From: Bacteroidales bacterium
Lineage (GTDB): Bacteria; Bacteroidota; Bacteroidia; Bacteroidales; JAADJA01
Direction of reading: 5' to 3'
Assembly (NCBI GenBank): GCA_020052415.1
Contig: JAGVPB010000011.1
Coordinates: 128,035-192,034, forward strand
DNA: 64,000 bases
Each line of letters opens with the position of its first letter. The first letter of the stretch is position 1. The notes beneath the pieces were generated by a model. The model ran no database searches, was not told the DNA's origin, and was given only the letters and a program-made list of their open reading frames with translations. The position numbers were made by a program, and so were the translations under genes. Below, piece by piece: positions 11,961 to 50,447 of the stretch.

Positions 11961-12106
11961 AGCATGGAGCGTGGAGCAGGGAGCAAGGAGCATGGAGCAT
12001 GGAGCAGGGAGCATGGAGCATGGAGTGGGGATAGGGTTCAGAGTTCAGAGTTTTGAGTTTTCAATTTTCAATTTTCAATTTTCAATTTTCAATTTTCAAT
12101 TCACAC
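11961..12106. repeat. 146-bp tract of 7-bp-periodic tandem repeats (locus A)
   Basis: Ten AGCNNGG units (11961-12030), then TTCAGAG x2, TTTTGAG, TTTTCAA x6 and TTCACAC (12037-12106), all in heptamer register. Confidence 0.95.
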
Positions 12107-12107
12107 A

Positions 12108-12115
12108 CAAAAATA
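12108..12115 (-). promoter_or_regulatory. possible -7 box (TATTTTTG) for the ferritin-like gene
   Basis: Matches TAnnTTTG on the minus strand. If it is used, the whole heptamer tract would be transcribed as a ~160-nt leader. Confidence 0.2.
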
Positions 12116-12220
12116 GGCATTTCAGTTTTAGTTGAGAGCAAAGAATAAATGTGAATTGAATATTTTTTTTATCTGATCCGAAAGTTAAAATATTAAATGA
12201 TTGGCAATAAATGATTTCCT

Positions 12221-12228
12221 TATTTTTG
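12221..12228 (+). promoter_or_regulatory. -7 promoter box (TATTTTTG)
   Basis: Matches TAnnTTTG, with 13 nt before the ATG at 12242. Confidence 0.4.
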
Positions 12229-12241
12229 TCACGCTCTAATA

Positions 12242-13684
12242 ATGTCTAAATTGAATCAGGACAGGATAATAACGCTAAAGAACCTTTACCGTGACTGGTC
12301 GGGTGAAGATGTGCACAGTTTCGAAAGGATACTGGGTTCTGGTTCGAACCGGAAATATTACAGGCTTATGGGAGAGAACCAAACGGCCATTGGCGTAATC
12401 GGTGAAGATCCTTATGAAAACAGAGCCTTCCTAAGTTTTACTGATCACTTCAGGAAGCACGGACTGAACGTTCCTGAAATTTATTCAACGGATAAAAACG
12501 GTGAAATATATTTACTGCAGGACCTGGGTGATATTTCACTTTTCAGCCTTTTACCGGGAATGACGGGTTCAAAGGATAATATAAGCCGGATCGAAACCCT
12601 TTATAAAAGGATTTTGGATGATTTGATCCGGTTCCAGGTAATTGCAGGGAAGGACCTTGATTATTCCGTTTGTTTTCCGCGTGAAAAGTTCGACAGTCAA
12701 TCAATGCACTGGGATCTGAACTATTTTAAATATTATTATCTGAAACTTGCCTACATCCCGTTTCGGGAACAGGCGCTTGAAAACGATTTTTCAACGCTGT
12801 TGGATTTCCTTTCGATGGCTGACTCCGGTTACTTTATGTACCGCGATTTTCAGGCAAGGAATATTATGCTGCTTAACACAGAACCTTATTTTATTGACTA
12901 CCAGGGCGGGAGAAAGGGCCCTTTACAGTATGATGTTGCATCGCTTTTATTCCAGGCAAAAGCCGAATTGCCGCATTCATTCAGGGAACAGATGCTGGAA
13001 TATTATATTTCAAAACTGAGAGAACATATAGAAGTAGATCGGAATACCTTTATTCCTCTTTATTACGGTTTTGTTCTGATTCGCACATTGCAGGTATTGG
13101 GGGCTTATGGATACAGAGGTTTTTATGAACGCAAACCTCATTTTGTCGAAAGCATAGGTTATGCTTTGAAAAATATAGAATGGTTACTGGAAAATGTAAA
13201 ATATGCTATTGAAGTCCCTGAATTGATAGGATGTTTGGAAGCGATGGTAAAGAAAAATTCCAAACAAAGACAAAAAAAAGGTAATGAAAAGCTGACTGTT
13301 GAAATCAACAGTTTCTCTTACCTTCGGAATGGAATTCCTGAAGATAAAATGGGGCATGGAGGAGGTTTTGTATTCGATTGCCGGGCTTTACCCAATCCCG
13401 GAAGGCTTGAAGAATTCAGGAACCTGAGCGGACTCGATCAGGAAGTAAAGGATTTTTTGAACCGTTACCCGGAAGTGGAAAATTTTAATGACAATATTTT
13501 TGCAGTCGTATGTCAATCAATAGACAATTATATTGAGAAGGGATTCGATCACCTTGTTATCAATTTTGGCTGTACCGGAGGGCAGCACAGGTCGGTGTTC
13601 TGTGCGGAGCGATTATTTGAAAAAATAAAAGGTAAATATAACATCCGGGTAATCCTGAAACACACAATGAAGGAAAACTGGTAA
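12242..13684 (+). CDS. fusion protein: AmgK-like (APH-fold) kinase domain plus RapZ C-terminal domain
   Basis: The N-terminal ~340 aa carry APH/AmgK-type catalytic motifs YRDFQARNIML and FIDYQGG..GPLQYDVASLL. The C-terminal ~130 aa align with E. coli RapZ (FVFDCRALPNPG vs YVFDVRFLPNPH; INFGCTGGQHRSVFCAERL vs VAIGCTGGKHRSVYIAEQL). Confidence 0.75.
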   Translation: MSKLNQDRIITLKNLYRDWSGEDVHSFERILGSGSNRKYYRLMGENQTAIGVIGEDPYENRAFLSFTDHFRKHGLNVPEIYSTDKNGEIYLLQDLGDISLFSLLPGMTGSKDNISRIETLYKRILDDLIRFQVIAGKDLDYSVCFPREKFDSQSMHWDLNYFKYYYLKLAYIPFREQALENDFSTLLDFLSMADSGYFMYRDFQARNIMLLNTEPYFIDYQGGRKGPLQYDVASLLFQAKAELPHSFREQMLEYYISKLREHIEVDRNTFIPLYYGFVLIRTLQVLGAYGYRGFYERKPHFVESIGYALKNIEWLLENVKYAIEVPELIGCLEAMVKKNSKQRQKKGNEKLTVEINSFSYLRNGIPEDKMGHGGGFVFDCRALPNPGRLEEFRNLSGLDQEVKDFLNRYPEVENFNDNIFAVVCQSIDNYIEKGFDHLVINFGCTGGQHRSVFCAERLFEKIKGKYNIRVILKHTMKENW

Positions 13685-13689
13685 AAGTT

Positions 13690-14943
13690 ATGGTTGATAT
13701 AATGTCAATATTAATTACAAATATCAAAAAGCTGGTTCAGACAGAAACTAAACCGGTCAAATTCAGGGCAGGCAGGCAGATGACGGAACTCCCTTTCATT
13801 GAAAATGCTTTTTTAGCCATTAAGGATGGAAAGATCGCCTCATTCGGTGAAATGAATAACTTTAAACTTCAAACTTCAAACTTTGAACTTAACATTGATG
13901 CCTCAGGCAAAATGGTCTTTCCCTCTTTCTGCGACTCGCATACCCACCTTGTTTACCCGGCCAGCCGCGAGATCGAATATGTGGATAAAATCAAGGGATT
14001 ATCCTATGAAGAAATTGCCAAACGCGGAGGCGGCATCCTGAACACAGCCAAAAAGTTGAAAGAAACCACTGTTGCCGAGCTGGTCGAAAGCGCTCTTGAA
14101 CGGCTCGGTGAAATCAAAAAGTTGGGAACCGGAGCAGTAGAAATCAAAAGCGGTTATGGGCTGGATACAGAGCAGGAATTGAAAATGCTTTATGCGATCC
14201 GAAAACTAAAGGAACTGTCGCCGCTGACAATCAAGGCTACATTTCTTGGAGCCCATTCAATTCCTTTGGAATTTCGTGGCAGGCAAAGCGAGTATGTGGA
14301 TCTAATCATCAATGAAATGATACCGATGGTAGCAGCCGAAGACCTGGCGGATTATATTGATGTTTTTTGCGATAAAGGTTTCTTTACCGTTGAAGATACG
14401 GAGAGGATACTGATGGCAGGCATGAAATATGGTTTACGACCCAAAATCCATGCAAATGAACTGGATTATTCAGGCGGCATTCAGGCTGGTGTAAAATATA
14501 ATGCCTTGTCGGTTGATCACCTTGAATATACAGGAGATGCTGAAATCGAAGCATTAATAAACAGCGAAACTATGCCGACCATACTTCCGGGTGCCGCTTT
14601 TTTCCTCGGAATGACTTATGCTCCCGCACGCAGGATGATTGACGCCGGATTGCCGGTAGCAATGGCGAGTGATTTTAATCCGGGTTCTTCACCGTCGGGC
14701 AACATGCAGTTGATTTTATCAATGGCAAGTATTCTTTATAAACTTACTCCTGAAGAGGCCATCAATGCAGTAACTATCAACAGCGCTTATGCCATGGGCC
14801 TGGAAGAAGAACTCGGTAGCATTGCCGTGGGCAAAAAGGCCAACTTCTTTATTACAAAGGAAATCCCCACTGTCGAGTTTATGCCGTATGCTTATGGGAG
14901 CAATAAAGTAGAGACGGTAATTTTAAATGGTGAAGTTCAATAA
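13690..14943 (+). CDS. hutI: imidazolonepropionase
   Basis: Amidohydrolase metal motifs (FCDSHTHLV, IHANELD) with length and order typical of HutI. An alternative start exists at 13702. Confidence 0.9.
   Translation: MVDIMSILITNIKKLVQTETKPVKFRAGRQMTELPFIENAFLAIKDGKIASFGEMNNFKLQTSNFELNIDASGKMVFPSFCDSHTHLVYPASREIEYVDKIKGLSYEEIAKRGGGILNTAKKLKETTVAELVESALERLGEIKKLGTGAVEIKSGYGLDTEQELKMLYAIRKLKELSPLTIKATFLGAHSIPLEFRGRQSEYVDLIINEMIPMVAAEDLADYIDVFCDKGFFTVEDTERILMAGMKYGLRPKIHANELDYSGGIQAGVKYNALSVDHLEYTGDAEIEALINSETMPTILPGAAFFLGMTYAPARRMIDAGLPVAMASDFNPGSSPSGNMQLILSMASILYKLTPEEAINAVTINSAYAMGLEEELGSIAVGKKANFFITKEIPTVEFMPYAYGSNKVETVILNGEVQ
13861..13895. repeat. in-frame heptamer tract inside hutI
   Basis: TTTAAAC TTCAAAC TTCAAAC TTTGAAC TTAACAT encodes FKLQTSNFELN. 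The word family is the same as at intergenic loci C and D. Confidence 0.8.
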
Positions 14944-21730: not shown

Positions 21731-21924
21731 AATTCACCAATTCAACCGGTTCAACCAAATCGGTCCACGAATTACACGAATGTCACGAATTTACTGATTC
21801 AACCAGTTCTACAAACCAGTTAGCAAATAGGCAGTCGGCAATGAGCAAGATTAAACTCTGAGCCCGGAATACAAAACGGTCAAACCAGTAACCAGAAACA
21901 AGCAACCAGTAACCAGCAACAGAT
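21731..21924. repeat. mosaic periodic-repeat locus B (9-bp array, conserved modules, 7-bp array)
   Basis: 9-bp-periodic AATTCAACC/GGTTCAACC and CACGAATNN units run over 21731-21800. Conserved modules lie at 21834-21883. Heptamers AACCAGT AACCAGA AACAAGC AACCAGT AACCAGC AACAGAT run over 21883-21924. Confidence 0.85.
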
Positions 21925-21975
21925 CAATCCCTCAAATACTTTAGGCAGGTCAATGACTTTATGACGATTTTCACC

Positions 21976-24099
21976 TCAGGTCTTTTTTACCACAACAGGA
22001 GTCTCCTTCAGGTACCTGCTGATTAATAACTCCAACGTTTCCTCGCTCACCGGCTTGGTAATAAAATCATCGCATCCTGCTGCAATGGCGTTGTTTTTCT
22101 CATCAAGTGTGGAATAAGCAGTCTGGACAATAACCGGCAATTCCGGCCGCGAAGCCTTTATCTGCCTGGTTGCTTCATAACCATCCATGACAGGCATTTT
22201 GATGTCCATGAGCACAAGGTTTATCTCCGGATAAGTGTTACACTTGTCCACAGCCTGCTGACCATCGGTAGCTGAAAGAATTCTGAGGTTTGGATAGCTT
22301 TTCGATAATATCGTTTCAAAGTAGCGAAGATTATTCGTATCATCCTCAGCAATCAGAATGACTCCCGATGTATTCCCATTAATTTTCGTTGGTGTTTTTG
22401 AATATATGGTTGTGGTTCCGGGAACAGGTTTGTATGGAATCGAAAATGTGAACACCGAACCTACTCCGGGGCTGGATTCAACGCCGATTTCACCACCCAA
22501 CAGCTCGACATTTTCACGTGCTATTGACAATCCCAGGCCAAGCCCGCCAAAATTCCGTGCGACTGTTTCACTTTCCTGAAGGAAGCGTTCAAATATTTTA
22601 CCCTGATTTTCCTTAGCAATCCCAATTCCGGTGTCCTTAACATAAAATATTAATTTTCCTTTAGCATGCCTGCATCCAATTCCAACAAAGCCATTATTGG
22701 TGAATTTCAACGCATTTTCAACAAGGTTATTCAGAATTTTGAGCAACTTGGATTCGTCAATCATTACCACACATTCATATTCGCTTAAATCATTTACCAA
22801 ACCGAGGGATATATTTTTTTCGTTGGCTTTTATTTTGAAAACCGCGTACAAGTCAGAAAGCAGGTGATTCAGGTTGGTTTCAGCATTTTGTATCCTTACC
22901 TGTTTGGTTTCTAATTTCGAAATTTCAAGAATATCGTCAATGATCCGTAGCAACTGTTCACTGTTATGGTGGATTATTTTTATGAATTCATCCCTCTCTT
23001 CAGTAGTAAGATCTTCCTTATATAATAAATTTGAAAATCCCATGATACCGTTGACGGGAGTTCGAATCTCGTGCGACATATTGTGCAGAAATTCCGTTTT
23101 AAGTCGGTCGGATTTTTCAGCATGTTCTTTTGCAATTTTGAGTTCTTTTTTTTGATTGATATTATCTTCAAACAAAACTCCAATCCTCCTGAACTCACCG
23201 GGGGCATTCTGTAATTTTTTTATATATCCGGTATTTTCGGATGCAAGGATGCCGGAAACAAGCTTTAAGGGACGAATTATCCATGCGCCTGTGGAAATAC
23301 GAAAAATCAGCCAGGCAACCACAAAGAAAACGATAATCAGAATCTGCATGATCAGGGCCGTTTCATTATAGAGCTTCAATGCCTTAAACTCCCTGCTGAA
23401 AGCTATTGTTGTCACAGGAATGTTATCCCATCCTGCCAGATCCTTGTAAAGGGTTACAGTATAAGGATTATCCGACAACACAGAATCTCTTTTCTGCAGG
23501 ATGTCAATTTTTGCGCTGGTCAAACCCGATAAATTATCCAGAAAAGCCGAATCCCATTTTTTAGCAAGGAAAAAATAACCTCGGGGATTTGTTAAATTAT
23601 GATTGGGATCCTCATTTGTGTGAACCGATCCGCTGCTCACTGCAAACAGACCATCCGGAATCTTGATAAAAAAATCCAGGAACCTTTTCTGTTTAAGCAG
23701 TATAACTGCTTCCTGTGGAATGATCCCTTTAAGTTCCAGTCCTTCGGATGACATTTCATGATCAAGATTAAAAGATGAATCATACACGCAAACATAATCA
23801 AACCGGAAGGAGGCTAATACCGTTGAAATGTAATCGTTATACCACAGCGAATCATTCGTTTCGATGCCTGCAACAAATTCGTCCCAGAAAGTATAATCAA
23901 AAATTACCTGCTTGAGTGAGGCTCCGTTAAGAGTGACTATCGAATTAACCCCTTGTTCGAAATTATCGCGTGATGAGTCGAAAATGAGCTTTTCCTGTTT
24001 ATTCTTAAAAAAATATAGTACGGATAATAACAACAGATAAATGACACCCGTGATGGTCATCAGCAGAAGAATTCGTGCGTAAATACCTGGTTTTTTCAT
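21976..24099 (-). CDS. hybrid sensor histidine kinase / response regulator
   Basis: N-terminal TM, extracytoplasmic sensor region and second TM. HisKA motif HNMSHEIRTPVNG, HATPase motif (GGLGLGLSI), and a C-terminal receiver (ILIAEDD...DIKMPVMDG). Confidence 0.9.
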   Translation of the reverse strand: MKKPGIYARILLLMTITGVIYLLLLSVLYFFKNKQEKLIFDSSRDNFEQGVNSIVTLNGASLKQVIFDYTFWDEFVAGIETNDSLWYNDYISTVLASFRFDYVCVYDSSFNLDHEMSSEGLELKGIIPQEAVILLKQKRFLDFFIKIPDGLFAVSSGSVHTNEDPNHNLTNPRGYFFLAKKWDSAFLDNLSGLTSAKIDILQKRDSVLSDNPYTVTLYKDLAGWDNIPVTTIAFSREFKALKLYNETALIMQILIIVFFVVAWLIFRISTGAWIIRPLKLVSGILASENTGYIKKLQNAPGEFRRIGVLFEDNINQKKELKIAKEHAEKSDRLKTEFLHNMSHEIRTPVNGIMGFSNLLYKEDLTTEERDEFIKIIHHNSEQLLRIIDDILEISKLETKQVRIQNAETNLNHLLSDLYAVFKIKANEKNISLGLVNDLSEYECVVMIDESKLLKILNNLVENALKFTNNGFVGIGCRHAKGKLIFYVKDTGIGIAKENQGKIFERFLQESETVARNFGGLGLGLSIARENVELLGGEIGVESSPGVGSVFTFSIPYKPVPGTTTIYSKTPTKINGNTSGVILIAEDDTNNLRYFETILSKSYPNLRILSATDGQQAVDKCNTYPEINLVLMDIKMPVMDGYEATRQIKASRPELPVIVQTAYSTLDEKNNAIAAGCDDFITKPVSEETLELLISRYLKETPVVVKKT

Positions 24100-24117
24100 T
24101 AATCCGGTAGATAAGTT

Positions 24118-24885
24118 TTAAAAAGTAATACCAGCGACAACATATACACTTCTTTCAAAGGGATTTGCAATAAGGCCTAAACACAATGGCAGCTCCCACC
24201 TTTCGGTTATCGGGATTGGTTTTGTAACCATAAAACCAACGTTTACAAAACCAGGGTCAGAGGCGTAAAAACTGCCTTTTGCCTGATACCCGGCAAACGC
24301 AGTAACCTCAGTTGTACCTTTCGAATAATAATACTGGAGCTCAAGATAAAGGCTTTTGGTACTGTCGGCACCATAAAAAAACCAGCCTCCCATTAAACCA
24401 AACGGAAAAACCTCTTCATCTGCAAGCAGAATTTGTGTTTCAAGCAAATGGCCTGTTGTTTCTTCATTATAATCAAAAAAGTCTATTTCATTTGTATCGC
24501 AGAAAGTCCAGTAATCCCATACAGAGAGTGTAACAGGTCCAAAGGTTTTCGACAAGTAAAAGTCGGTCTCCTGTTCTCCTTCACCTGTAAATTTGTAGGC
24601 TCCCCATGCACCCAGTGTGAAATTCTTCCAGCCAAGTTCGATATACGGCTGGATGCTCGGCGCCTGTCCGTAATTCTGACCGCGCCAGATATACCGGCTC
24701 ACGAGGTCAACATTTACAGATATATCAACAGAATCAACCTTTGTCGAATCTGTTTGAGCCAATGAACGGAAAGAATAAAAATTAAACATAGAAAGCGTTA
24801 CAATAAGAAAACTTCTCAACCTGATATTGGTAATTACGGGTTTAACCAGTATTCTAACAATGCCTTCACATAAGTTACTGTTCAT
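24118..24885 (-). CDS. putative outer-membrane beta-barrel (TorF/Gcw_chp-like porin)
   Basis: Alternating beta-strand pattern with a C-terminal aromatic residue (GITF). SRYIWRGQNYG resembles the Y-x-x-RG motif of the family. Lies 18 nt upstream of the hybrid kinase. The start codon is uncertain. Confidence 0.4.
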   Translation of the reverse strand: MNSNLCEGIVRILVKPVITNIRLRSFLIVTLSMFNFYSFRSLAQTDSTKVDSVDISVNVDLVSRYIWRGQNYGQAPSIQPYIELGWKNFTLGAWGAYKFTGEGEQETDFYLSKTFGPVTLSVWDYWTFCDTNEIDFFDYNEETTGHLLETQILLADEEVFPFGLMGGWFFYGADSTKSLYLELQYYYSKGTTEVTAFAGYQAKGSFYASDPGFVNVGFMVTKPIPITERWELPLCLGLIANPFERSVYVVAGITF

Positions 24886-25113
24886 TATTATTTATTAAAT
24901 TTCGTCTGAATTTTTCACTGCCATTTTATGATTCCAGTGTCTATGATATATCCCCACAAAACCGATCGTATTGAGTTTGTTACATAAGAGTATCAGTGAA
25001 CGATATGATTGATTAAAGGTTTCAGTTTGATAAAACAAATGAAATATTTTCATATTCAGAACCATACTTCGGTACATCGGCTTACTTTTGCTATCCAATT
25101 CAAATTGAAATAT

Positions 25114-27525: not shown

Positions 27526-27551
27526 TCAGAAATCGGCTTTTTATAAAGTTT

Positions 27552-27559
27552 TATCTTTG
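27552..27559 (+). promoter_or_regulatory. -7 promoter box (TATCTTTG)
   Basis: Matches TAnnTTTG, with 20 nt before the ATG at 27580. Confidence 0.4.
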
Positions 27560-27579
27560 CGCCTTTTACTTTTCTAAAA

Positions 27580-34037: not shown

Positions 34038-34106
34038 TCAAAACCTGAAACCTGTCTCGCCTACGGCGAGATGAAACTTTGAACCTTGAACCTGGAACTT
34101 TAAACT
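34038..34106. repeat. mosaic periodic-repeat locus D with central hairpin
   Basis: Heptamers TCAAAAC CTGAAAC, then the hairpin, then TGAAACT TTGAACC TTGAACC TGGAACT TTAAACT. The array ends 3 nt from the fabI stop codon. Confidence 0.85.
34055..34071. other. conserved hairpin TCTCGCC-TAC-GGCGAGA
   Basis: 7-bp GC-rich stem. The same stem sequence recurs at 43288-43304 with an ATT loop. Confidence 0.8.
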
Positions 34107-34109
34107 AAC

Positions 34110-34955: not shown

Positions 34956-34983
34956 TGTTTTTATGTTATTTAGTTATGTCGGA

Positions 34984-36645: not shown

Positions 36646-36689
36646 ACGAATGTGTTAACAAAAACTAATTTGCAAAAATAGTAAAGAAG

Positions 36690-37601: not shown

Positions 37602-37613
37602 AATTATCTATTT

Positions 37614-38816
37614 TCACATTAACTGTAAAGCACTAACTTTGTCGGCAATATCTTTGGCTACCTCGGTTTTCAATTTTAAATCCAATTCTTTGATAACTTG
37701 ATGCTTATCAATGAGAGTTACTTTATTTGTCGCATAGCCAAAACCCGCTCCTGCATCCTTTAACGAATTCAATACGATCAGATCAAGGTTTTTATTGTCC
37801 AGTTTTTGTTTTGCATTTTCAACTTCATTATTTGTCTCCAGTGCAAAGCCAATCAAAACCTGACCTTTATTTTTTATTTTTCCGAGTTCTTTTAAAATGT
37901 CAGGGGTCTTTTTCATCTTAATGGAGAACTCATCCTCAGGTTTTTTTATTTTTTGACTTTGAACATCAACCGGGGTAAAATCAGCAACTGCCGCAGCCAT
38001 AACAGCAACCTGCACCTGCGGAAATATTTCAACACATGCATTAAACATTTCCAAAGCGGAAACAACTTTTATAACAGTAATATTTTTATGTGTCGCAGCG
38101 ATTGCAACCGGCCCCGATATAAGCTTTACTTCAGCTCCTCTAGCGGCAAATTCCTCCGCGAGAGCAAAGCCCATTCTTCCTGATGAATGATTACCAATAA
38201 ATCTGACGGGGTCAATGGATTCATAAGTAGGACCGGCGGAAATCAGAACGGTTTGTCCTTCAAAGCCCTTTTTTTTTTTGAAAAAATCTATAAGAATTTC
38301 AATGATTTTTTCCGGCTCCTGCATACGCCCGGCACCGTAAAGGCCGCTTGCAAGTTCACCTTCATCGGGTTCGATAAGGGTGTTGCCGAAATCTCTCAGC
38401 TTTTGGATATTTGCCTGTGTTGAAGGATGATTGAACATATCGACATCCATAGCAGGAGCAAAAAAAACCGGGCATTTTGCAGCAAGATATGTTGCTGTAA
38501 GCAGATTATCAGCCATCCCGTTAGCCAGCTTACCCATCGTATTGGCCGAAGCCGGTGCAATAAGATAAACATCGGCCCAGTTTCCCAATTCAACATGGCT
38601 GTGCCATGATCCATCTGCCTTTTCAAAAAAATCAGAAAGCGCCGGAAAACCGCTTAAGGTAGATAAAGTCAGCGGAGTTACAAAATCTTTTGCCGCGTTG
38701 GTAAGTAAAATTTTTACTTCAGCACCCTGCTTAATAAGCAACCTTACAAGGAAAGGGATTTTATATGCTGCAATACTGCCTGTAATCCCGATAAGTACCT
38801 TTTTGCCTTTTAACAT
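37614..38816 (-). CDS. coaBC: bifunctional phosphopantothenoylcysteine decarboxylase / phosphopantothenate--cysteine ligase
   Basis: N-terminal flavoprotein motif KVLIGITGSIAAYK, PASANTMGKLANG, and C-terminal ligase motifs (ISAGPTYESIDPVRFIGNHSSGRMG). Confidence 0.95.
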   Translation of the reverse strand: MLKGKKVLIGITGSIAAYKIPFLVRLLIKQGAEVKILLTNAAKDFVTPLTLSTLSGFPALSDFFEKADGSWHSHVELGNWADVYLIAPASANTMGKLANGMADNLLTATYLAAKCPVFFAPAMDVDMFNHPSTQANIQKLRDFGNTLIEPDEGELASGLYGAGRMQEPEKIIEILIDFFKKKKGFEGQTVLISAGPTYESIDPVRFIGNHSSGRMGFALAEEFAARGAEVKLISGPVAIAATHKNITVIKVVSALEMFNACVEIFPQVQVAVMAAAVADFTPVDVQSQKIKKPEDEFSIKMKKTPDILKELGKIKNKGQVLIGFALETNNEVENAKQKLDNKNLDLIVLNSLKDAGAGFGYATNKVTLIDKHQVIKELDLKLKTEVAKDIADKVSALQLM

Positions 38817-38822
38817 AAAAGA

Positions 38823-39158
38823 TTAAAACTCATTGTCAATTTTTTTCTGCGGGTTACGATAATAAACCTTACCCTTCGAAAATTCATGAACTGCAATGAG
38901 GGTGGGCTTTGGAAGCTTTTCGTAAAATTTGGCAACCTCAATCTGCTCCCTGTTCTCAAAAATTTCTTCGAGGTTATCCTGCGTAGTCGCAAATTCCTGA
39001 ATTTTCTGGTTGAGTTCCTCTTTCATTTCAAGAGCTATTTGGTTCGCACGTTTCGAGAGGATTGCAACCGTTTCATAAATATTGCCTGTTGGCTTGTCAA
39101 AGTCCCTTATTTTTCGCGTAACTGCTGTTAATTCAGCTTTTGTTTTTTTATAATCCAT
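38823..39158 (-). CDS. rpoZ: DNA-directed RNA polymerase subunit omega (Bacteroidota type)
   Basis: 111 aa. NIYETVAILSKRANQI resembles the RpoZ core helix. It occupies the conserved position between bamD and coaBC. Confidence 0.6.
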   Translation of the reverse strand: MDYKKTKAELTAVTRKIRDFDKPTGNIYETVAILSKRANQIALEMKEELNQKIQEFATTQDNLEEIFENREQIEVAKFYEKLPKPTLIAVHEFSKGKVYYRNPQKKIDNEF

Positions 39159-39170
39159 TGATATTATTAT

Positions 39171-39971
39171 TTACAAGTTTTCCAAATCTTTTTTAGCCCT
39201 TTCGACCATATATTGTACATCCCGTTTGTATTTAGTTTCAGGATATTGCGAAACCAATTGCTGGTATATATCAATTGATTTCTGATATCTCTCCTGCCGT
39301 TTCGATTTCACACTTTTCGAAGCATAGAAATAGTACGCCTTGATCGAATAAAATAATGCATCTTCCTTATACTTCGTATCGGGATATTGAGTCAGTAAGT
39401 TTTTAAATGCAGAGACTGAAGCATTGTATTTGGCCATTTTCAGGTATAGCTTGGCTATTTCCAAATCCTTGCGCTGTAGCTTATCCCTTAGTTCATCAAT
39501 CAGATTATTGCATTGTTCAAGTCGTTCACTGCTGGGATAAGCATTTAAAAAGAGCTGTAATTCCTTTATTGCATCATAAGTATTTGTTTGATCAAGCTTA
39601 TATACCGGCGATTCAAGGTATTTGCAGTATGCCGACATAAAGGAACATTCTTCGGCTTTTGCATTGCGCGGATAAGTTTGTGCAAACCTGTTGAAATGAT
39701 AGCTTGCCATTATATTTTCTTTCTGATAATAATAGGCATAAGCATATTTATATGCAATGTCTTCAGCTTCAGCCTTGCCCCTGTAAAAAGGCATAACCTG
39801 GTCAAAAATGGTCATGGCCCGGTAATAATCTTCATTTTCATAATATTCCATTGCCTTTTCATATTTATATTGATAATCCTGACTTTTCTGAATCTTTGAA
39901 TACTTGCTGCAGGAAAATAAAATAATTGAAAATGAGAATATTACTATATAAAAAAGGGCTTTTTTAAACAT
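39171..39971 (-). CDS. bamD: outer membrane protein assembly factor BamD (TPR lipoprotein)
   Basis: Starting at the ATG at 39971 gives MFKKALFYIVIFSFSIILFSCSKY with an LFSC lipobox. TPR-like repeats run throughout. A -7 box at 39977-39984 lies inside the longer track ORF. Confidence 0.75.
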   Translation of the reverse strand: MFKKALFYIVIFSFSIILFSCSKYSKIQKSQDYQYKYEKAMEYYENEDYYRAMTIFDQVMPFYRGKAEAEDIAYKYAYAYYYQKENIMASYHFNRFAQTYPRNAKAEECSFMSAYCKYLESPVYKLDQTNTYDAIKELQLFLNAYPSSERLEQCNNLIDELRDKLQRKDLEIAKLYLKMAKYNASVSAFKNLLTQYPDTKYKEDALFYSIKAYYFYASKSVKSKRQERYQKSIDIYQQLVSQYPETKYKRDVQYMVERAKKDLENL

Positions 39972-39976
39972 GGGCG

Positions 39977-39984
39977 CAAAAGTA
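39977..39984 (-). promoter_or_regulatory. -7 promoter box (TACTTTTG), near-leaderless arrangement
   Basis: Matches TAnnTTTG on the minus strand, with only 5 nt before the ATG at 39971. Confidence 0.35.
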
Positions 39985-40078
39985 ATATAATTTAATGGAA
40001 TTTTAAAACGTAAATTTCGGTTAATTATTTTTTTCAAAAGAAATTGAAAACTTAATTTGATAAGAATTGAATAAAATA

Positions 40079-40086
40079 TAGTTTTG
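40079..40086 (+). promoter_or_regulatory. -7 promoter box (TAGTTTTG)
   Basis: Matches TAnnTTTG, with 49 nt before the ATG at 40136. Confidence 0.35.
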
Positions 40087-40135
40087 CGACTTTTAATTGG
40101 TTAACAGCAATTTATAATATAATTTTTATAAAAGT

Positions 40136-41386
40136 ATGGATATCTTTAGTAAAATTGAGAGTTATTTTGGCCCCCTGGGTAAATACATGGAACAGGCACA
40201 TGGTTATTATATGTTTCCAAAACTTGAAGGTGAGATTTCGAACCGGATGATATTTATGGGAAAAGAGAGGTTGGTATGGAGCCTGAACAATTATCTTGGT
40301 CTGGCAAACCATCCTGTGATCCGTAAGACAGATGCCGAAGCTGCCCAGAAATGGGGTATGGCTTATCCTATGGGAGCAAGAATGATGTCGGGTCAAACAA
40401 AATACCACGAGGAACTTGAGCATAAACTGGCTGCTTTTGTAAAAAAAGAATCAGCCTACCTGTTGAATTATGGATATCAGGGTATGGTTTCAATCATTGA
40501 TTCATTGGTCGACAGAAGAGATGTTATTGTTTACGATTCTGAAGCTCATGCCTGCATCCTCGATGGAATGAGATTACACATCGGGAAGCGGTTTGTTTAT
40601 CCGCATAACAATATGGAAAACCTTGAGAAAGGGCTTGAAAGAGCTACAAAACTTGTTCAGGTTTCCGGTGGAGGAATACTGGTAATTACCGAAGGAGTTT
40701 ATGGCATGGCAGGCGACCTTGGAAAATTAAAACAGATCACTGATTTCAAAAAGAAATATAATTTCAGGTTGTTGGTTGATGATGCTCATGGTTTTGGGAC
40801 GATGGGTGAAACCGGTGCCGGAACTGCTGAATTCCTGGGTGTTCAGGATAAGGTGGATTTGTATTTCGGCACTTTTGCAAAAGCAATGGCCGGATTTGGT
40901 GGATTCATTGCCGGTGATAAAAAAGTAATTGATTTTCTGATGTACAATATGAGATCGCAGATTTATGCGAAATCATTACCAATGCCCATGGTTATAGGAG
41001 CATTGAAACGTCTTGAAATGTTACAGAATGAACCGGAACACAAGCAAAAACTCTGGACAATTGTAAATGCATTGCAATCCGGATTGAAGGCAAAAGAATT
41101 CAATCTTGGTGAAACCGAATCACCCGTGACTCCGGTATTTTTCAAAGGAGGAATTCCGGAAGCCACTCAGGCAACAAAAGAGCTGCGGGAAAATTATAAT
41201 GTTTTCTGCTCTATTGTGACTTATCCGGTAGTTCCCAAGGATGTTATCATGTTACGGCTTATACCAACCGCCGTTCATACTCTCGAAGATGTGGATTATA
41301 CAATCAAAGCCTTTTCGGCCATCAAGGAAAATCTCGATGCAGGTAAGTATTCCGATGGGAAAATTGCCGGGATGGTCGTAAATTAA
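40136..41386 (+). CDS. alpha-oxoamine synthase family PLP-dependent acyltransferase (KBL / serine-palmitoyltransferase-like)
   Basis: 416 aa. SLNNYLGLANHP, DDAHGFG and the PLP-lysine context GTFAKAMAGFGGF are typical of this family. Confidence 0.75.
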   Translation: MDIFSKIESYFGPLGKYMEQAHGYYMFPKLEGEISNRMIFMGKERLVWSLNNYLGLANHPVIRKTDAEAAQKWGMAYPMGARMMSGQTKYHEELEHKLAAFVKKESAYLLNYGYQGMVSIIDSLVDRRDVIVYDSEAHACILDGMRLHIGKRFVYPHNNMENLEKGLERATKLVQVSGGGILVITEGVYGMAGDLGKLKQITDFKKKYNFRLLVDDAHGFGTMGETGAGTAEFLGVQDKVDLYFGTFAKAMAGFGGFIAGDKKVIDFLMYNMRSQIYAKSLPMPMVIGALKRLEMLQNEPEHKQKLWTIVNALQSGLKAKEFNLGETESPVTPVFFKGGIPEATQATKELRENYNVFCSIVTYPVVPKDVIMLRLIPTAVHTLEDVDYTIKAFSAIKENLDAGKYSDGKIAGMVVN

Positions 41387-41495
41387 AAATACAGACCTGT
41401 CATTTCAGCTTTCTATTGAAGAAATTTTAATATCTGTATATATGGATGTTTTTATGTTCCCTAATATATTACATTTGCTTTATTACAGTTGAAAG

Positions 41496-43184
41496 GTGAA
41501 AGAAGCAACAAGAAAATTAATTTTAGGTAAAAAATTCTATTCTGTTTACAGAAGAATTCGGTTTTTACGCTATAAGAAAAACCTTATCAAACAGGAAAAG
41601 AACCACAAGAAACCGGAATCAAAAAGTGAAGAGAATGGAAAGGTGCAGCCTGAGAAAAAAACGAGGCCATCTTTCTTTTACAGGATTTACCGCATGTACA
41701 GGATAACCAGGTTTTTGAGATACAGAAGAAAAACCATCCGCAATCAAAGAATTACAAAGAAAAAGATCGAAAGACAATTTGCCCGTGATCAGAAAAGGGA
41801 TATCAGAAAACAATTAAGAAATTTAAAACGGAAGGAAAGAAGTATATACTCAGCTCAATATTTTCGTCCTGCCTCTAAAAAAAGTGAGAAAATTTCACTG
41901 AAAAGAAGGATTTATAGAGTTAACAGGATTATCAGGTTTCTGCGACACAGAAAAAAAACACGACGGATTGAAAAACTTGCAAGAATAAAGTGGCAAAGGC
42001 TTGCGACTCAAATGGAAAGGCGTGAGATTCAGGAAAGGTTAAAGGAAAAGAGATTGACTGATAGAAAACTGGAAAGACACAAAACGAAGGAAGAGAAATT
42101 AACAACCCGGAATGAAAGCAAAGAAATTCGGGAACGATTAAAAGAAAAGAGGCTGACAGACAGACGGCTGGAAAGAAATCGTGCCAGGCAGGAAAAACTT
42201 GAAAGAAAGGTGAACATCCATAACCGAAAACGATTGATCAGGCAATTGTTTAAATCACGACTCAGGTCAATAATATACGAGCTAAAATCATTTGATATAT
42301 TTTCTCTTAAAAGGTGGAGATCCGGAATTCTTGCTTTTGCTGAAAACAGGGATAAAAGAAACAGTTTTTTTATCATCACCTTTAATTCCACAGTGTTGTT
42401 CATTTTATCCTATCTGGTCATTTACATCATCAGTCAGGCTTTGACTATCATTACAGCCCTTAGTTTTGATTATAAGACAATACTGTTTTATTATAAGATC
42501 TATTATAACATTGACAGCTACCAGTGGACAGCCGATTCGGTAAAGATCATTTACTCTATGAAGCCGGCCGTTGGAATCGTACTTGGAATTATTTTCATCA
42601 TCCTGTACAGTGTAAGAAGAGATACCCCGGGAAATACGAAGATATTTTACCTCTGGGGTTTTATTCACGGTATGGTCATGTTTTTTGGCTCATTGCTTAT
42701 GGGTACTATGCTCAACAAAGACTTTGGATGGGTAATAGCCTATATGTATTACCGGGATACGGGCAAAATGATCTTTTCCATTATTTCGATCTTCAGCCTG
42801 GTAATAATTGGCAGTTTTGTAGCCAAATCCTTTTTGGTATCGGGAAACTCATATTTTAACTTCATTAATCGCCAGGAGAATAAATTTTTACTTGCCAGTC
42901 AGGTAATATGGCCTGCAATAATCGGAACCTTTTTGCTTATTATCGTTAGTTCCCCGAATGAATCCTATTTTATGCCCGATGATGAGTTCGTTTATAAGAT
43001 TCTCAAGTTCCTTTCCATTTTTGTTCTGTTAATTCCAACCATGGTAACGTTCAGAACCTATAATGAAATATATTTTGATGAAGCACCGCGAAAAATCAGG
43101 TTGAGCTGGAAATTATTGCTTCTGACTCTCATCATCCTTCTTTCTTTCCGCTTCGGTTTGCAATCAGGAATACAGTTCGGTTGA
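41496..43184 (+). CDS. hypothetical membrane protein with ~285-aa Arg/Lys-repeat N-terminus and 7-8 TM helices
   Basis: GTG start per the track; the first in-frame ATG is about codon 66. Three copies of the Y-R-x-x-R-I-x-RFLR-[YH]-[RK]-[RK] motif and two copies of ERLKEKRLTDR-x-LER. The C-terminal half is hydrophobic. Confidence 0.6.
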   Translation: MKEATRKLILGKKFYSVYRRIRFLRYKKNLIKQEKNHKKPESKSEENGKVQPEKKTRPSFFYRIYRMYRITRFLRYRRKTIRNQRITKKKIERQFARDQKRDIRKQLRNLKRKERSIYSAQYFRPASKKSEKISLKRRIYRVNRIIRFLRHRKKTRRIEKLARIKWQRLATQMERREIQERLKEKRLTDRKLERHKTKEEKLTTRNESKEIRERLKEKRLTDRRLERNRARQEKLERKVNIHNRKRLIRQLFKSRLRSIIYELKSFDIFSLKRWRSGILAFAENRDKRNSFFIITFNSTVLFILSYLVIYIISQALTIITALSFDYKTILFYYKIYYNIDSYQWTADSVKIIYSMKPAVGIVLGIIFIILYSVRRDTPGNTKIFYLWGFIHGMVMFFGSLLMGTMLNKDFGWVIAYMYYRDTGKMIFSIISIFSLVIIGSFVAKSFLVSGNSYFNFINRQENKFLLASQVIWPAIIGTFLLIIVSSPNESYFMPDDEFVYKILKFLSIFVLLIPTMVTFRTYNEIYFDEAPRKIRLSWKLLLLTLIILLSFRFGLQSGIQFG

Positions 43185-43359
43185 ATCGGTTGAATCGGTT
43201 AATTGGGTTAATTGGAATAATTAGTGCCGACTTGTTGTTGGTTACTGGTTACTTATTACTGGTTTCGAGTTACTGGCTGCCAACTGCTCTCGCCATTGGC
43301 GAGACCGACTGGATTTTGGTTACTGGTTCAGAGTTCTCAGCTCTCAGTTCTTTTGTCAA
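43176..43359. repeat. mosaic periodic-repeat locus E (9-bp array, 7-bp arrays, hairpin)
   Basis: TTGAATCGG x2 then TTAATTGGG and TTAATTGGA start at the stop codon of the upstream gene. GTGCCGAC lies at 43224-43231. Heptamers GTTACTG GTTACTT ATTACTG GTTTCGA GTTACTG run from 43241. After the hairpin come GGTTACT GGTTCAG AGTTCTC AGCTCTC AGTTCTT. Confidence 0.9.
43288..43304. other. conserved hairpin TCTCGCC-ATT-GGCGAGA
   Basis: Same 7-bp stem as at 34055-34071, embedded in the heptamer array between convergent genes. Confidence 0.8.
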
Positions 43360-49186: not shown

Positions 49187-49194
49187 CAAATTTA
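49187..49194 (-). promoter_or_regulatory. -7 promoter box (TAAATTTG)
   Basis: Matches TAnnTTTG on the minus strand, with 44 nt before the ATG at 49142. Confidence 0.3.
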
Positions 49195-49430
49195 TATATT
49201 TTCACCTGAGTTGAAAAAGCTGTTATACTTTTTATACCAGATTTTTTGTTTTGTAATGAGGAATCATAATCAAAAAATAAATATTTTTACACTGATTAAG
49301 TAAACTTATCTGATATACTCCGTAAAACAATTTCGGTTTTACCATGGCTAAGTAAACCAAATTTAATGGAGACACTTGATGGTATCAGCGAAATTATTTT
49401 AAAAAAATTGTCAATTTAAATTCAGTTGCT

Positions 49431-50150
49431 ATGACTATTGACGGAATGAACGAAGAGGAAAGGATCAGGGAAGCCATTAAAGAAAAGACGTGGAATGAAC
49501 AGATGACTACTGATTCATGGGCGGTATTTAAAATAATGTCGGAACTGGTTGAAGGTTTTGAAACACTTTCAAGGATAGGACCCTGTGTATCCATGTTCGG
49601 GTCGGCCCGGACAACACAGCAACACAGTTATTACAGGCTGGCGGAAGAAACGGCTTACCTCCTCACAAAAAAGGGATTCGGAGTCATTACAGGCGGTGGG
49701 CCGGGTGTTATGGAAGCGGCAAACAAAGGTGCTCATTTTGCAGGTGGTAAATCGGTAGGCCTTAATATTGATTTGCCTTTTGAACAGATTCCAAACCCTT
49801 TCATTGATCAGGATAAATTCATTAATTTCAAGCATTTCTTTGTGAGAAAAGTCATGTTCATGAAATATTCGCAGGGATATATTGTTTTGCCCGGAGGATT
49901 TGGAACAATGGATGAATTATTTGAAGCCATTACACTTATCCAAACGCATAAGCTTGTCCGTTTCCCGATAGTCCTTATGTCCAGGTCATATTGGAAGGGA
50001 TTAATTGACTGGATCAACAACACCATGTTAAATGAAAAAAATATAAAACCGAGTGACCTTGAAATTTTCACCCTCGTTGATAATCCCCAGGAAGCAGTGA
50101 CGGTAATTGATGATTTTTATAAGAAATACGCACTCAAACCGAACTTCTGA
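49431..50150 (+). CDS. LOG-family protein (TIGR00730-type nucleotide 5'-monophosphate nucleosidase)
   Basis: GGGPGVMEA and PGGFGTMDELFE motifs. 239 aa. Confidence 0.85.
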   Translation: MTIDGMNEEERIREAIKEKTWNEQMTTDSWAVFKIMSELVEGFETLSRIGPCVSMFGSARTTQQHSYYRLAEETAYLLTKKGFGVITGGGPGVMEAANKGAHFAGGKSVGLNIDLPFEQIPNPFIDQDKFINFKHFFVRKVMFMKYSQGYIVLPGGFGTMDELFEAITLIQTHKLVRFPIVLMSRSYWKGLIDWINNTMLNEKNIKPSDLEIFTLVDNPQEAVTVIDDFYKKYALKPNF

Positions 50151-50170
50151 TTGAATTCCCAATATTTCAG

Positions 50171-50310
50171 TCCAGAGTTCAGAGATCTGAGTTTATTTGC
50201 CGACGGCTTACTGGTTCCTTGTTACTGGTTACCTGTTACTGGTTACTGGTTCCGTGTTCTGAGTTCCGTGTTCCTGGTTCTGTGTTCGAGTGTCAAGTTG
50301 TTGACCGTTG
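50171..50310. repeat. mosaic periodic-repeat locus F (7-bp array)
   Basis: TCCAGAG TTCAGAG ATCTGAG, then TTGCCGAC (50197-50204), then 13 consecutive NGTTNNN heptamers over 50213-50303 (GGTTCCT TGTTACT GGTTACC TGTTACT GGTTACT GGTTCCG ...). Confidence 0.9.
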
Positions 50311-50387
50311 CCCAATAATTCGTTATTCTTATTTCAATTGTTCTTTATTGGTAATATAAAAGGAATAAGAGAATAAAAACGGTCAAC
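50300..50387. repeat. 10-bp inverted repeat GTTGACCGTT / AACGGTCAAC flanking a 68-bp AT-rich spacer
   Basis: Arms at 50300-50309 and 50378-50387. Inner imperfect arms are TTATTCTTATT and AATAAGAGAATAA. Confidence 0.75.
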
Positions 50388-50412
50388 GTTATTTAGGCAT
50401 TGACAGGGAACA

Positions 50413-50447
50413 CTCAATTCTCAAGTCTCAAATCTTAAGTCTCTTTA
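50413..50447. repeat. second heptamer array of locus F
   Basis: CTCAATT CTCAAGT CTCAAAT CTTAAGT CTCTTTA. Confidence 0.75.

What the first reader, a model, noticed from the sequence alone, without database searches (positions are those of the whole stretch)
11961..50447. Dispersed mosaic family of 7-bp-periodic (and 9-bp-periodic) non-coding repeats, STRR-like, at eight or more loci in 64 kb
Heptamer-register tracts occur at A 11961-12106, B 21731-21924, C 31400-31493, D 34038-34106, E 43176-43359 and F 50171-50447. Short remnants lie at 18407-18428 and 47233-47260, and one in-frame copy sits in hutI (13861-13895). Units drift within a tract but share one vocabulary: NGTTNNN words such as ACTGGTT/CTTGTT (E, F, and B when inverted) and RGTTCAA/AGTTTNA (C and D when inverted), plus CAGAGTT and TTTTCAA. 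B and E also share a 9-bp array, GGTTGAATC in E versus GGTTGAACC/GGTTGAATT in inverted B. There are no unique spacers and no coding potential. Orientation is non-random. At all five loci that lie next to a gene's 3' end, the G/T-rich NGTTNNN strand is the sense strand of that gene. Those genes are rocD for C, fabI for D, the 41496 gene for E, LOG for F and the hybrid kinase for B. C, D and E start within 0-3 nt of the stop codon. This suggests an RNA-level or 3'-end role (termination, stability or a protein-binding platform) rather than random slippage. The closest described analogue I know is the heptameric STRR repeats of heterocystous cyanobacteria. I am not aware of such a family being described for Bacteroidota.
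Basis: seen in the sequence. Interest (0 to 1): 0.75.

Follow-up and report, generated by a model that had tools for sequence, protein, structure and literature searches.

The report
Drifting 7-base intergenic repeat arrays
Six gaps between genes in this uncultured Bacteroidales genome hold real, fast-changing arrays of 7-base (sometimes 8- or 9-base) repeats of a kind already known from cyanobacteria, Xanthomonas and a few Bacteroidetes; their units turn over in register between relatives, and one 21.5-kb genome inversion has both ends inside them, but no function is shown.

Summary
The core observation holds. Period-7 tracts sit at six intergenic loci and in one hutI loop. No other period except 9 gives any tract, and shuffles give about 0. 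The loci share words and short non-repeat modules. Fifty-six units in register show a near-invariant RGTT core with a free tail. The two "remnants" are not members.

These are STRR-like heptanucleotide tandem arrays, a known kind that has been reported in Bacteroidetes (PMC4679880, PMC4692102). Close relatives show:
- empty sites;
- unit turnover in register (A: 20 versus 21 units of different make-up; C: 9 versus 6);
- an array that supplies its gene's stop codon (E);
- a roughly 21.5-kb inversion in the window with both breakpoints inside tracts B and E.

The orientation rule is not established. Only three or four loci are informative. A sample of 80 metagenome loci gave 15 sense against 9 antisense. 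The excess of sense arrays at stop codons is confounded by stop-codon content.

Tract D is 93% conserved where neutral sites are 50-60% identical, so some constraint exists.

Verdict: a real new member of a known kind. Interest is moderate.

The parts
11961..12106 (+). Tract A. About 20 heptamers share one register. The unit morphs from CATGGAG-type (x10) through AGGGTTC/AGAGTTC/TGAGTTT to TCAATTT (x6). It lies between the divergent rubrerythrin gene (start about 11942, minus strand) and the RapZ-like gene (12242, plus strand).
   Evidence: The ortholog in L184 has the same anchors and register but 21 units of different make-up.
13854..13898 (.). In-frame period-7 stretch (AACTTNA x5) inside hutI. 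It codes for a hypervariable, indel-prone loop.
   Evidence: (family D7).
21731..21924 (-). Tract B, between the convergent SpdSyn and hybrid-kinase genes. It is a chimera. The SpdSyn-proximal GGTTGAA 9-mers come from the ancestral unknown/SpdSyn spacer. The kinase-proximal CTGGTTA/GCTGGTT heptamers and the TGCCGACTG module come from the ancestral kinase/cupin spacer.
31400..31493 (-). Tract C. Nine RGTT-core heptamers begin 3 nt after the rocD stop codon. They are followed by non-periodic sequence.
   Evidence: The L059 ortholog has 6 units at the same position.
34038..34106 (-). Tract D. Five heptamers come directly after the fabI stop codon, then a 7-bp hairpin (34055-34071), then two more heptamers.
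   Evidence: It is 93% identical to L058. The site is empty in L002.
43173..43359 (+). Tract E. It contains GGTTGAATC/GGTTAATTG 9-mers (43173-43225; the first unit holds the gene's TGA stop), ACTGGTT heptamers (43232-43276), the hairpin module (43288-43304) flanked by CCRACTG, and more heptamers (43311-43352).
50171..50294 (+). Tract F, left arm. It holds GAGTTCA-type, ACTGGTT and GTTCCGT/GTTCTGA heptamers in one register after the LOG stop codon. Near its start is the GCCGAC 'head' module.
50403..50447 (-). Tract F, right arm. Heptamers in the opposite orientation (CTCAAGT type) lie just upstream of the next gene's promoter. They pair with the left arm in a 310-nt fold. An inner inverted repeat is 50300-50309 with 50378-50387.
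   Evidence: (z = -2.0). The whole of F is absent from L188.
21759..43311 (.). Segment of about 21.5 kb that is inverted in the window compared with close relatives and an outgroup. Both ends lie inside tracts B and E, next to a CCGACTG(T)CTTGTT motif. That motif is present in inverted orientation in both ancestral spacers.

Best explanation
These are STRR-like long simple-sequence repeats: non-coding tandem arrays of 7-nt units (locally 8 or 9 nt) in an uncultured Bacteroidales genome.

Shown:
- The arrays sit at fixed intergenic sites, with stable anchors at both ends.
- They keep a single register. Their unit variants are gained, lost and amplified in whole units, as expected from slipped-strand mispairing or unequal exchange.
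- Whole arrays, or composite blocks of arrays, are present in some lineages and absent from the same site in others.
- Short non-repeat modules travel with them between loci: a GCCGAC 'head', a 17-nt hairpin, and TTCCGGGYTCAGAGTTT.
- They are places where ectopic recombination has happened. One 21.5-kb inversion has both breakpoints inside tracts.

Inferred:
- Most of the sequence is tolerated filler. It occupies the only free space between a stop codon and the next promoter.
- The G/T-rich 'sense after a stop codon' pattern arises partly because that strand can supply or tolerate stop codons at a gene's end.
- There is a residual constraint (the RGTT core, and the conservation of D) whose cause is unknown.
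For: - Period-7 specificity and significance. Period 7 is also the commonest period in 733 kb of protein-anchored, mostly Bacteroidales loci, at about one fifth of the window's density.
- A single register is kept through unit changes.
- Turnover in orthologous arrays: A has 20 units against 21 with a different composition. C has 9 units against 6. In E, arrays are added in steps across L001/L002 (none), L058 (9-mers only), L056/57 and the window.
- Empty sites: D in L002, the M1-to-MFS spacer in the window, and F and A in L188.
- Shared modules.
- Inversion with chimeric junctions.
- The arrays have no more RNA structure than shuffles (A z = +1.6; B about 0). There are no Rfam hits and no terminator enrichment.
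- Arrays of other heptamer units are equally common elsewhere. In IMG/VR, GAGTTCN gives 36 stretches, GATGTCN 35 and GTGATCN 99.
- The literature on the kind: PMC4679880, PMC4692102, bioRxiv 10.1101/2022.06.06.494920.
Against: - Pure neutral slippage does not predict the near-invariant GTT at unit positions 2-4 (86-96% of 56 units) beside free positions 1 and 5-7.
- It does not predict 93% identity of tract D to a relative whose fourfold sites are 50-60% identical.
- It does not predict arrays persisting at the same stop codons in lineages as far apart as 70% kinase identity.
- Slippage alone does not explain how the same unit with the same non-repeat 'head' came to sit at three or four loci.
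- Only 64 kb of this genome was available, so genome-wide statistics are missing.
Confidence: 0.6

Rival explanations
1. The arrays are a functional platform for binding single-stranded nucleic acid, or a 3'-UTR element. RGUU presented every 7-9 nt on the sense strand just after stop codons would recruit a protein that covers about 7 nt per monomer, such as a cold-shock or S1-like protein. This would affect mRNA 3'-end stability, read-through or termination.
For: - The RGTT core is invariant while the rest of the unit drifts. The 8- and 9-mers of E and its relatives also carry GGTT.
- Tract D is conserved far above neutral sites, with no sign of a local recombination patch.
- C, D, E and the kinase-downstream array keep their position at the stop codon in diverged relatives.
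- The arrays are no more structured than shuffles, as a single-strand platform would be.
- In the metagenome sample, 19 arrays that abut a stop codon are sense and 4 are antisense.
- MacGregor 2015 proposed S1, Csp or CsrA binders for TAACTGA arrays.
Against: - Orthologous sites are empty, or hold other elements, in close relatives with the same genes.
- Unit number and sequence turn over freely.
- The CATGGAG and TTTTCAA units of A lack the core.
- Orientation between co-directional genes is 15:9, which is not significant.
- The 19:4 figure is confounded. (GAGTTCT)n has TGA in all three frames and its complement has no stops (reasoning).
- No binder or RNA end is known.
Confidence: 0.2
2. The tracts are MITE-like or BIME-like composite mobile elements. 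These would be cassettes made of arrays plus small modules (the hairpin and the GCCGAC head) that insert into intergenic DNA and are lost again as blocks.
For: - The same non-repeat modules occur at several loci.
- Composite cassettes are present or absent as blocks: GT heptamers plus a spacer plus CA-rich 8-mers in L059 and L063 against 54 nt in the window, and F absent from L188.
- F has inverted arms and a long-range fold.
- Inverted array pairs are common in the metagenome sample.
Against: - No clear target-site duplication was found, and no transposase lies nearby.
- The arrays have conserved anchors and evolve in place.
- The array of E is fused to the gene's last codons and grows in steps across lineages.
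- Lengths vary continuously, not in element-sized steps.
Confidence: 0.1
3. The arrays are scars of DNA-break repair. A reiterative, telomere-healing-like activity would add repeats to the 3' ends at a break. Joining the two ends would then leave head-to-head arrays.
For: - Inverted array pairs are strongly polar. The pattern-strand array is 5' and its complement 3' in 18 loci against 2 (GAGTTCN, metagenomes), 25 against 0 (GTGATCN) and 6 against 1 (GATGTCN).
- Units morph progressively along arrays.
- The one reconstructed rearrangement has tracts at both junctions.
Against: - Both ancestral spacers already carried arrays before the inversion.
- The two arms of an inverted pair mirror each other, non-repeat inner segments included. 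This points to inverted duplication rather than independent addition.
- The ACTGGTT pairs do not follow the polarity.
- Many of the viral loci are related phages, so they are not independent.
- No candidate enzyme is known.
Confidence: 0.04
4. The tracts are a chance pattern or an assembly artefact.
For: Short-read assemblies do break inside such arrays.
Against: - Shuffles give about 0 tracts against 6-8 observed.
- Orthologous arrays recur in independent samples and assemblies.
Confidence: 0.01

Closest known systems
STRR (short tandemly repeated repetitive) heptamers of heterocystous cyanobacteria, within the wider class of long simple-sequence repeats with 5-11-nt units (Mrazek 2007, as summarised in PMC4679880 and PMC4692102)
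   Same: Both are tandem 7-nt units in non-coding DNA at many dispersed loci. Both have several unit types per genome. In both, period 7 is favoured over other periods, and function is unknown.
   Different: The host is an uncultured Bacteroidales bacterium, not a cyanobacterium. The units are RGTT-core words (ACTGGTT, GAGTTCA, GGTTCAA and others), not CCCCAGT, TTGGTCA or CAACAGT (unit sequences recalled from my own knowledge of Mazel 1990). The arrays are short, strongly drifted mosaics, and they are mixed with 8- and 9-nt arrays.
TAACTGA and other heptamer direct repeats in Beggiatoaceae, cyanobacteria and five Bacteroidetes (MacGregor 2015, PMC4679880)
   Same: That paper covers intergenic heptamer arrays in Bacteroidetes, with several unit types in one spacer. 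Close relatives lacked the arrays at the same gene neighbourhood. A possible role in rearrangement was already suggested.
   Different: The unit differs: TRF reports no array with a TAACTGA consensus in the window. Most TAACTGA arrays lie just upstream of start codons in forward orientation. Here four of the six tracts abut stop codons.
GGGAATC arrays of Xanthomonas and GGGGAYT arrays of Nostoc (Rehm 2015, PMC4692102)
   Same: Both are heterogeneous heptamer units with a conserved core and free positions. Both are mostly intergenic and include some inverted pairs. Both sit between the same genes in related species, with extensive variation in length and sequence.
   Different: Those arrays are G-rich and prone to form G-quadruplexes. 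Only the GGAG-rich part of tract A is comparably G-rich, and the other tracts have a GTT core.
REP/BIME mosaic elements of enterobacteria
   Same: Both are mosaics of short modules in intergenic DNA, often just after stop codons. Both include small hairpins. Both are known or likely substrates for rearrangement.
   Different: The basic unit of a BIME is a 20-40-nt imperfect palindrome. Here the bulk is direct heptamer arrays, and the 17-nt hairpin occurs only twice in 64 kb. No RAYT gene was looked for.

Membership tests
Heptanucleotide long SSR / STRR-like arrays | Head-to-tail tandem copies of a 7-nt unit, three or more copies | tested here: met
   TRF and autocorrelation find them at A, B, D, E, F and in hutI. 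C is in register.
Heptanucleotide long SSR / STRR-like arrays | Non-coding and dispersed at many loci in one genome | tested here: met
   Six of the 20 intergenic gaps of at least 100 nt carry tracts. The flanking genes were identified.
Heptanucleotide long SSR / STRR-like arrays | Period 7 over-represented relative to neighbouring periods and to chance | tested here: met
   There are 6-8 tracts at period 7 and none at periods 3-6, 8 and 10-13. Shuffles give 0-0.13.
Heptanucleotide long SSR / STRR-like arrays | Unit number and composition vary between close relatives in whole units, at a fixed site | tested here: met
   A has 20 units against 21 of different make-up, with the same anchors. C has 9 units against 6.
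STRR in the strict sense (cyanobacterial) | Units CCCCAGT, TTGGTCA or CAACAGT in heterocystous cyanobacteria | tested here: not met
   The units here have an RGTT core. The host is Bacteroidales: T9SS sorting domains are present and the nearest genomes are Bacteroidales MAGs. The STRR unit sequences are recalled from the literature.
TAACTGA repeat network (MacGregor 2015) | TAACTGA unit, mostly a few nt upstream of start codons in forward orientation | tested here: not met
   No TAACTGA consensus appears among the TRF arrays. C, D, E and the left arm of F abut stop codons.
REP/BIME | Units are 20-40-nt imperfect palindromes repeated across the genome | tested here: inconclusive
   Only one small palindrome type was found (17 nt, at D and E). 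The bulk of the sequence is direct arrays.
REP/BIME | Associated RAYT (TnpA-REP) gene in the genome | not tested
   Only 64 kb of the genome was available.
MITE | Terminal inverted repeats and a target-site duplication, with clean empty sites | tested here: inconclusive
   F has inverted arms, and empty sites exist. No duplication can be told apart from neighbouring repeat units, and A, C and E evolve in place.
CRISPR array | Identical repeats separated by unique spacers of similar length | tested here: not met
   The units are contiguous, with no spacers.
Intrinsic terminator | G+C-rich hairpin followed directly by a U run | tested here: not met
   The consensus scan reports no terminator-like site in any tract, and counts equal or fall below those of shuffles. 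The 7-bp hairpin of D has its U5 run at a distance from the stem rather than directly after it.

The most novel reading that the evidence does not exclude
Heptamer arrays might be laid down by a directional repeat-adding or fold-back process at DNA ends. That would explain why inverted array pairs are almost always arranged with the same strand type 5' on both sides (about 50 loci against 3 across three unit families). It would also make these arrays a record of past chromosome breaks and rearrangements in bacteria and phages.
Probability: 0.05. Interest if true: 0.85.

Novelty: new member of a known kind. Interest (0 to 1): 0.4.

Why it matters
Heptanucleotide arrays have been known since 1990 and are common in environmental bacteria, yet neither their origin nor any function is settled. 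This locus set has close relatives at graded distances. It therefore shows the life cycle directly: seeding at a gene's end, in-register turnover, spread of modules between loci, loss of whole blocks, and an inversion with both ends in arrays. It also gives two concrete handles for experiments. One is an invariant RGTT core. The other is a tract (D) that is conserved far above neutral sites. On the practical side, such arrays break short-read assemblies of metagenome-assembled genomes and can mislead calls of gene ends.

Tried and rejected
- Exact-protein look-ups of window genes found no record, so the source contig could not be walked.
- Rfam gave nothing, at gathering scores over the whole window and at E <= 1 around C. 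No tRNA genes were found.
- Promoter and terminator consensus scans showed no enrichment and no site in the tracts.
- GC skew follows gene orientation and gave no replication direction.
- Searching the literature for the unit strings found nothing. Mrazek 2007 is not held.
- I considered whether GAGTTCN or ACTGGTT are universally special units. Controls rejected this. Permuted units GATGTCN (35) and GTGATCN (99) are as common as GAGTTCN (36) or commoner. ACTGGTT (26) is only modestly above three permutations (3-11).
- I considered whether the units are quasi-palindromes with G·T wobble pairs. About 30% of random heptamer arrays would qualify, so I dropped the idea (reasoning only).
- I considered whether stop codons explain the polarity of inverted pairs. 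This was rejected, because the polarity holds for GAGTTCA, GAGTTCG and GAGTTCC arrays, which have no stops on that strand.
- The 19:4 excess of sense arrays at stop codons is not usable as evidence of function, because the ORF ends are set by the arrays' own stop codons.
- 18407-18428 and 47233-47260 were rejected as family members.
- The idea that D's similarity to L058 reflects a recent recombination patch was rejected. The flanking coding identity is ordinary, at 0.88-0.95.


Full report

Yes, in its core. Tandem Repeats Finder reports 7-nt arrays at 11961-12025 (AGCATGG, 9.3 copies), 12036-12052, 12058-12101 (TTTTCAA, 6.3 copies, 100% matches), 13858-13883, 21883-21920, 31476-31492, 34075-34106, 43239-43276, 50208-50287 and 50413-50443. 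It also reports 9-nt arrays at 43177-43222.

A lag-autocorrelation scan (28-nt windows, at least 75% self-identity) finds six period-7 regions and one period-9 region. It finds none for periods 3-6, 8 and 10-13. Locally shuffled sequence gives 0-0.1 regions per period.

When the tracts are written in register, one 7-nt frame persists across about 150 nt in A while the unit morphs: CATGGAG, then AGGGTTC, AGAGTTC, TGAGTTT and TCAATTT. F behaves the same way.

Similarity between loci is real:
- Direct families link E, F and A, and link C, D and the hutI stretch.
- Inverted matches link B to F (38 nt, 87%) and B to E (39 nt, 82%).
- AAACTCTGARCCCGGAA is exact in both B and C.
- The hairpin TCTCGCC-NNN-GGCGAGA is exact in D and E, with 0.11 expected by chance.

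Fifty-six units from B, C, D, E, F and the middle of A were aligned in register. Position 2 is G in 86%, position 3 is T in 93% and position 4 is T in 96%. No base exceeds 45% at positions 1, 5, 6 and 7.

The gene assignments are right. T9SS sorting domains and the nearest genomes place the window in an uncultured Bacteroidales lineage.

Two items fail:
- 18407-18428 is orthologous to a small hairpin in a relative.
- 47233-47260 is one arm of a 9-periodic palindrome between convergent genes.

**2. Geometry and the orientation claim**

- A lies between divergent genes.
- B and E lie between convergent genes, so any orientation is "sense" for one neighbour.
- Only C, D and F are informative. All three are sense, which gives p = 0.125.
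- One further independent case in a relative fits: GAGTTCN heptamers lie after the M1-peptidase stop in L063.

To test the rule on many loci I scanned metagenome contigs for GAGTTCNGAGTTCNGAGTTC. The 80 loci held have G+C from 34% to 74%.

With crude ORF calls, arrays between co-directional genes are 15 sense and 9 antisense, which is not significant.

Arrays within -15 to +10 nt of a stop codon are 19 sense and 4 antisense (my count from the table). This figure is confounded. (GAGTTCT)n carries TGA in all three frames while its complement has no stops, so ORFs are ended by the arrays themselves.

Within 150 nt of a gene's 3' end, my count from the same table gives roughly 27 sense and 20 antisense. 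Orientation bias is therefore not established.

**3. What relatives show**

Nearest genomes by the acyl-CoA dehydrogenase are Bacteroidales MAGs at up to 90% amino-acid identity. Closer relatives were fetched through homologues of three window genes. Fourfold-degenerate sites of the flanking genes are 59-81% identical to the L056/57 lineage and 50-60% identical to L058.

- **Tract D.**
  - L002 has a 78-nt spacer with no repeats, and L001 has a different hairpin element.
  - L058 has the same five-plus-two heptamers and an intact hairpin stem. It is 93% identical over 60 nt, with no locally raised identity in the adjacent coding DNA.
  - The otherwise closer L056/57 lineage has degenerate heptamers plus another element.
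- **Tract C.** L059 has 6 units where the window has 9, at the same place after the rocD stop.
- **Tract A.**
  - L184 has the same anchors (AATT|AGCATGG ... CAAT|TCAMACACAAAAATAGG) and the same register.
  - It has 21 units against 20, with a different make-up: block-wise AGCATGG and AGCAGGG, three TCTCAGT and one TTCCAAT. The window has interleaved variants and six TTTCAAT.
  - Three independent short-read contigs end inside this array.
- **Tract E.**
  - In the outgroups L001 and L002 the gene ends ...F-G-G-TAA and overlaps or abuts the SpdSyn gene.
  - In the window lineage it ends ...F-G-TGA, and GGT-TGA is the first array unit.
  - L058 has only 9-mers. L056/57 add 8-mers and a degenerate hairpin module. 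The window adds ACTGGTT heptamers.
- **M1-peptidase to MFS spacer.** The window has 54 nt. L059 has about 274 nt and L063 about 250 nt, made of GT-rich heptamers, a spacer and CA-rich CCCAATAT 8-mers.
- **L188.** Both F and the A array are absent.

Together these results show arrays that are long-lived at anchored sites, turn over in whole units, and are gained or lost as blocks.

**4. An inversion with both ends in tracts**

- In L056-L058 and in L001 the order is unknown gene, then convergent SpdSyn, then M14.
- In L059-L062 the hybrid kinase converges on the cupin gene.
- In the window, SpdSyn converges on the kinase (tract B) and the unknown gene converges on the cupin gene (tract E).
- Short-word BLAST shows both window spacers are chimeras. 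E equals the ancestral unknown/SpdSyn spacer (1-129), plus 43 nt, plus the cupin-proximal part of the ancestral kinase/cupin spacer (266-359). B is the reciprocal product.
- Both ancestral spacers carry CCGACTG(T)CTTGTT exactly at the exchange point, in inverted orientation relative to each other.
- The segment from about 21759 to 43311 is therefore inverted in the window lineage. The likely crossover is at a shared module of the repeat regions.

**5. Structure and known RNA families**

- The arrays fold no better than shuffles (A z = +1.6; both halves of B about 0).
- D and the left part of E reach z = -2.2 and -2.4 because of the 7-bp hairpin.
- F forms a 310-nt long-range fold between its oppositely oriented arms (z = -2.0).
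- There are no Rfam matches. No terminator-like site falls in any tract.

**6. How general, and how special, are the units?**

GAGTTCN and ACTGGTT arrays occur in many metagenome and viral contigs. Permuted control units are just as common: GATGTCN gives 35 stretches and GTGATCN gives 99, against 36 for GAGTTCN. ACTGGTT gives 26, against 3-11 for three permutations.

Heptamer arrays of many sequences are therefore common, and the window's words are not universal signals. Within this genome, however, the same unit with the same non-repeat head (GCCGAC-N2-4-(C)TTGTTACTGG) sits at several loci. That points to copying between loci.

In 733 kb of protein-anchored loci, period 7 is the commonest period (13 tracts). 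The density there is about one fifth of the window's.

**7. An unexplained regularity**

About a quarter of the metagenomic GAGTTCN arrays have a reverse-complement array nearby. The pattern-strand array is the 5' one in 18 loci and the 3' one in 2. The same holds for GTGATCN (25 against 0) and GATGTCN (6 against 1) in viral contigs. It does not hold for ACTGGTT (2 against 5).

Stop-codon content does not explain this. Many of the viral loci are related phages. F in the window has this arrangement.

**8. Comparison with what is known**

This is the kind described as STRR in cyanobacteria and as long SSRs with 5-11-nt units.
- MacGregor 2015 documents TAACTGA and other heptamer arrays in five Bacteroidetes. 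That paper notes their absence from the same neighbourhood in close relatives and suggests a link to rearrangement.
- Rehm 2015 describes heterogeneous heptamer units with a conserved core, inverted pairs, and variation between species in Xanthomonas and Nostoc.
- A Nostoc preprint reports effects of heptamer arrays on expression near start codons.

The window's family differs in host, in unit sequence, in its preference for stop-codon-proximal sites, and in its mixture with 8- and 9-mers. It fails the strict STRR and TAACTGA definitions. It fits the general class.

**9. Verdict**

The feature is real. It is a new member of a known kind, and its function is unproven.

The best-supported mechanism is in-register slippage or unequal exchange at anchored intergenic sites. 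It is accompanied by occasional copying of modules between loci and by ectopic recombination (confidence 0.6).

A protein-binding or 3'-end role remains possible (0.2), because of the invariant RGTT core and the conservation of D.

Noticed in passing
window 21759-43311: This 21.5-kb segment is inverted relative to close relatives and an outgroup. Both junctions are chimeric spacers with a shared CCGACTG(T)CTTGTT motif at the exchange point.
   Followed up: yes
L064-L143 (metagenome) and L189-L382 (viral): Inverted pairs of heptamer arrays are almost always arranged with the searched (G>C) strand array 5' and its complement 3'. The counts are 18:2, 25:0 and 6:1 loci for three units, while ACTGGTT is an exception. 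Stop codons do not explain it.
   Followed up: partly
window 18374-47363 versus L188 5918-6057: In a relative with 71% identity in the RapZ-like protein (L188), FTCD converges directly on the aconitase gene and is followed by LOG and the metallophosphoesterase gene. The 29-kb block that separates FTCD from the aconitase gene in the window is therefore placed elsewhere or absent there.
   Followed up: partly
window 30869-31400: About 540 nt next to tract C, including a plausible 46-aa ORF (31083-31223, minus strand), are absent from the 90-nt orthologous spacer of L059. There is no Rfam match.
   Followed up: partly
window 13854-13898: The period-7 stretch in hutI codes for a loop that differs in length and sequence in all three relatives compared, so a heptamer array sits inside an indel-tolerant coding loop.
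   Followed up: yes
window 3725-5090: Four to five tandem copies of a unit of about 300-306 nt (63-73% identity) lie inside the 1101-aa ORF 3260-6565. This is probably a repeated protein domain.
   Followed up: no
L001 9780-9900; L059 13790-13870: A different small dispersed element (GTCATTGCGA...GAAGCAATC hairpin) occupies intergenic sites in relatives. In L059 its loop holds a 5-nt (GAAGT)n array.
   Followed up: no
L185, L186, L187 position 1: Three independent short-read contigs start at the same point inside the (AGCAGGG)n array, so these arrays fragment metagenome assemblies.
   Followed up: yes
L059 6300-6575; L063 4827-5077: Composite spacer after the M1-peptidase gene: GT-rich heptamers, then CA-rich CCCAATAT 8-mers just upstream of the conserved promoter of the MFS gene. 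The window has a clean 54-nt spacer at this site.
   Followed up: yes
window 6913-6960: A 24-nt inverted repeat with 88% arm complementarity (ATATAAAAAAACAGGAGGCTGCCA / TGGCAGCCTCCTGTTTTATCAGAT) looks like an ordinary bidirectional terminator. The genome therefore does use conventional hairpins elsewhere.
   Followed up: no
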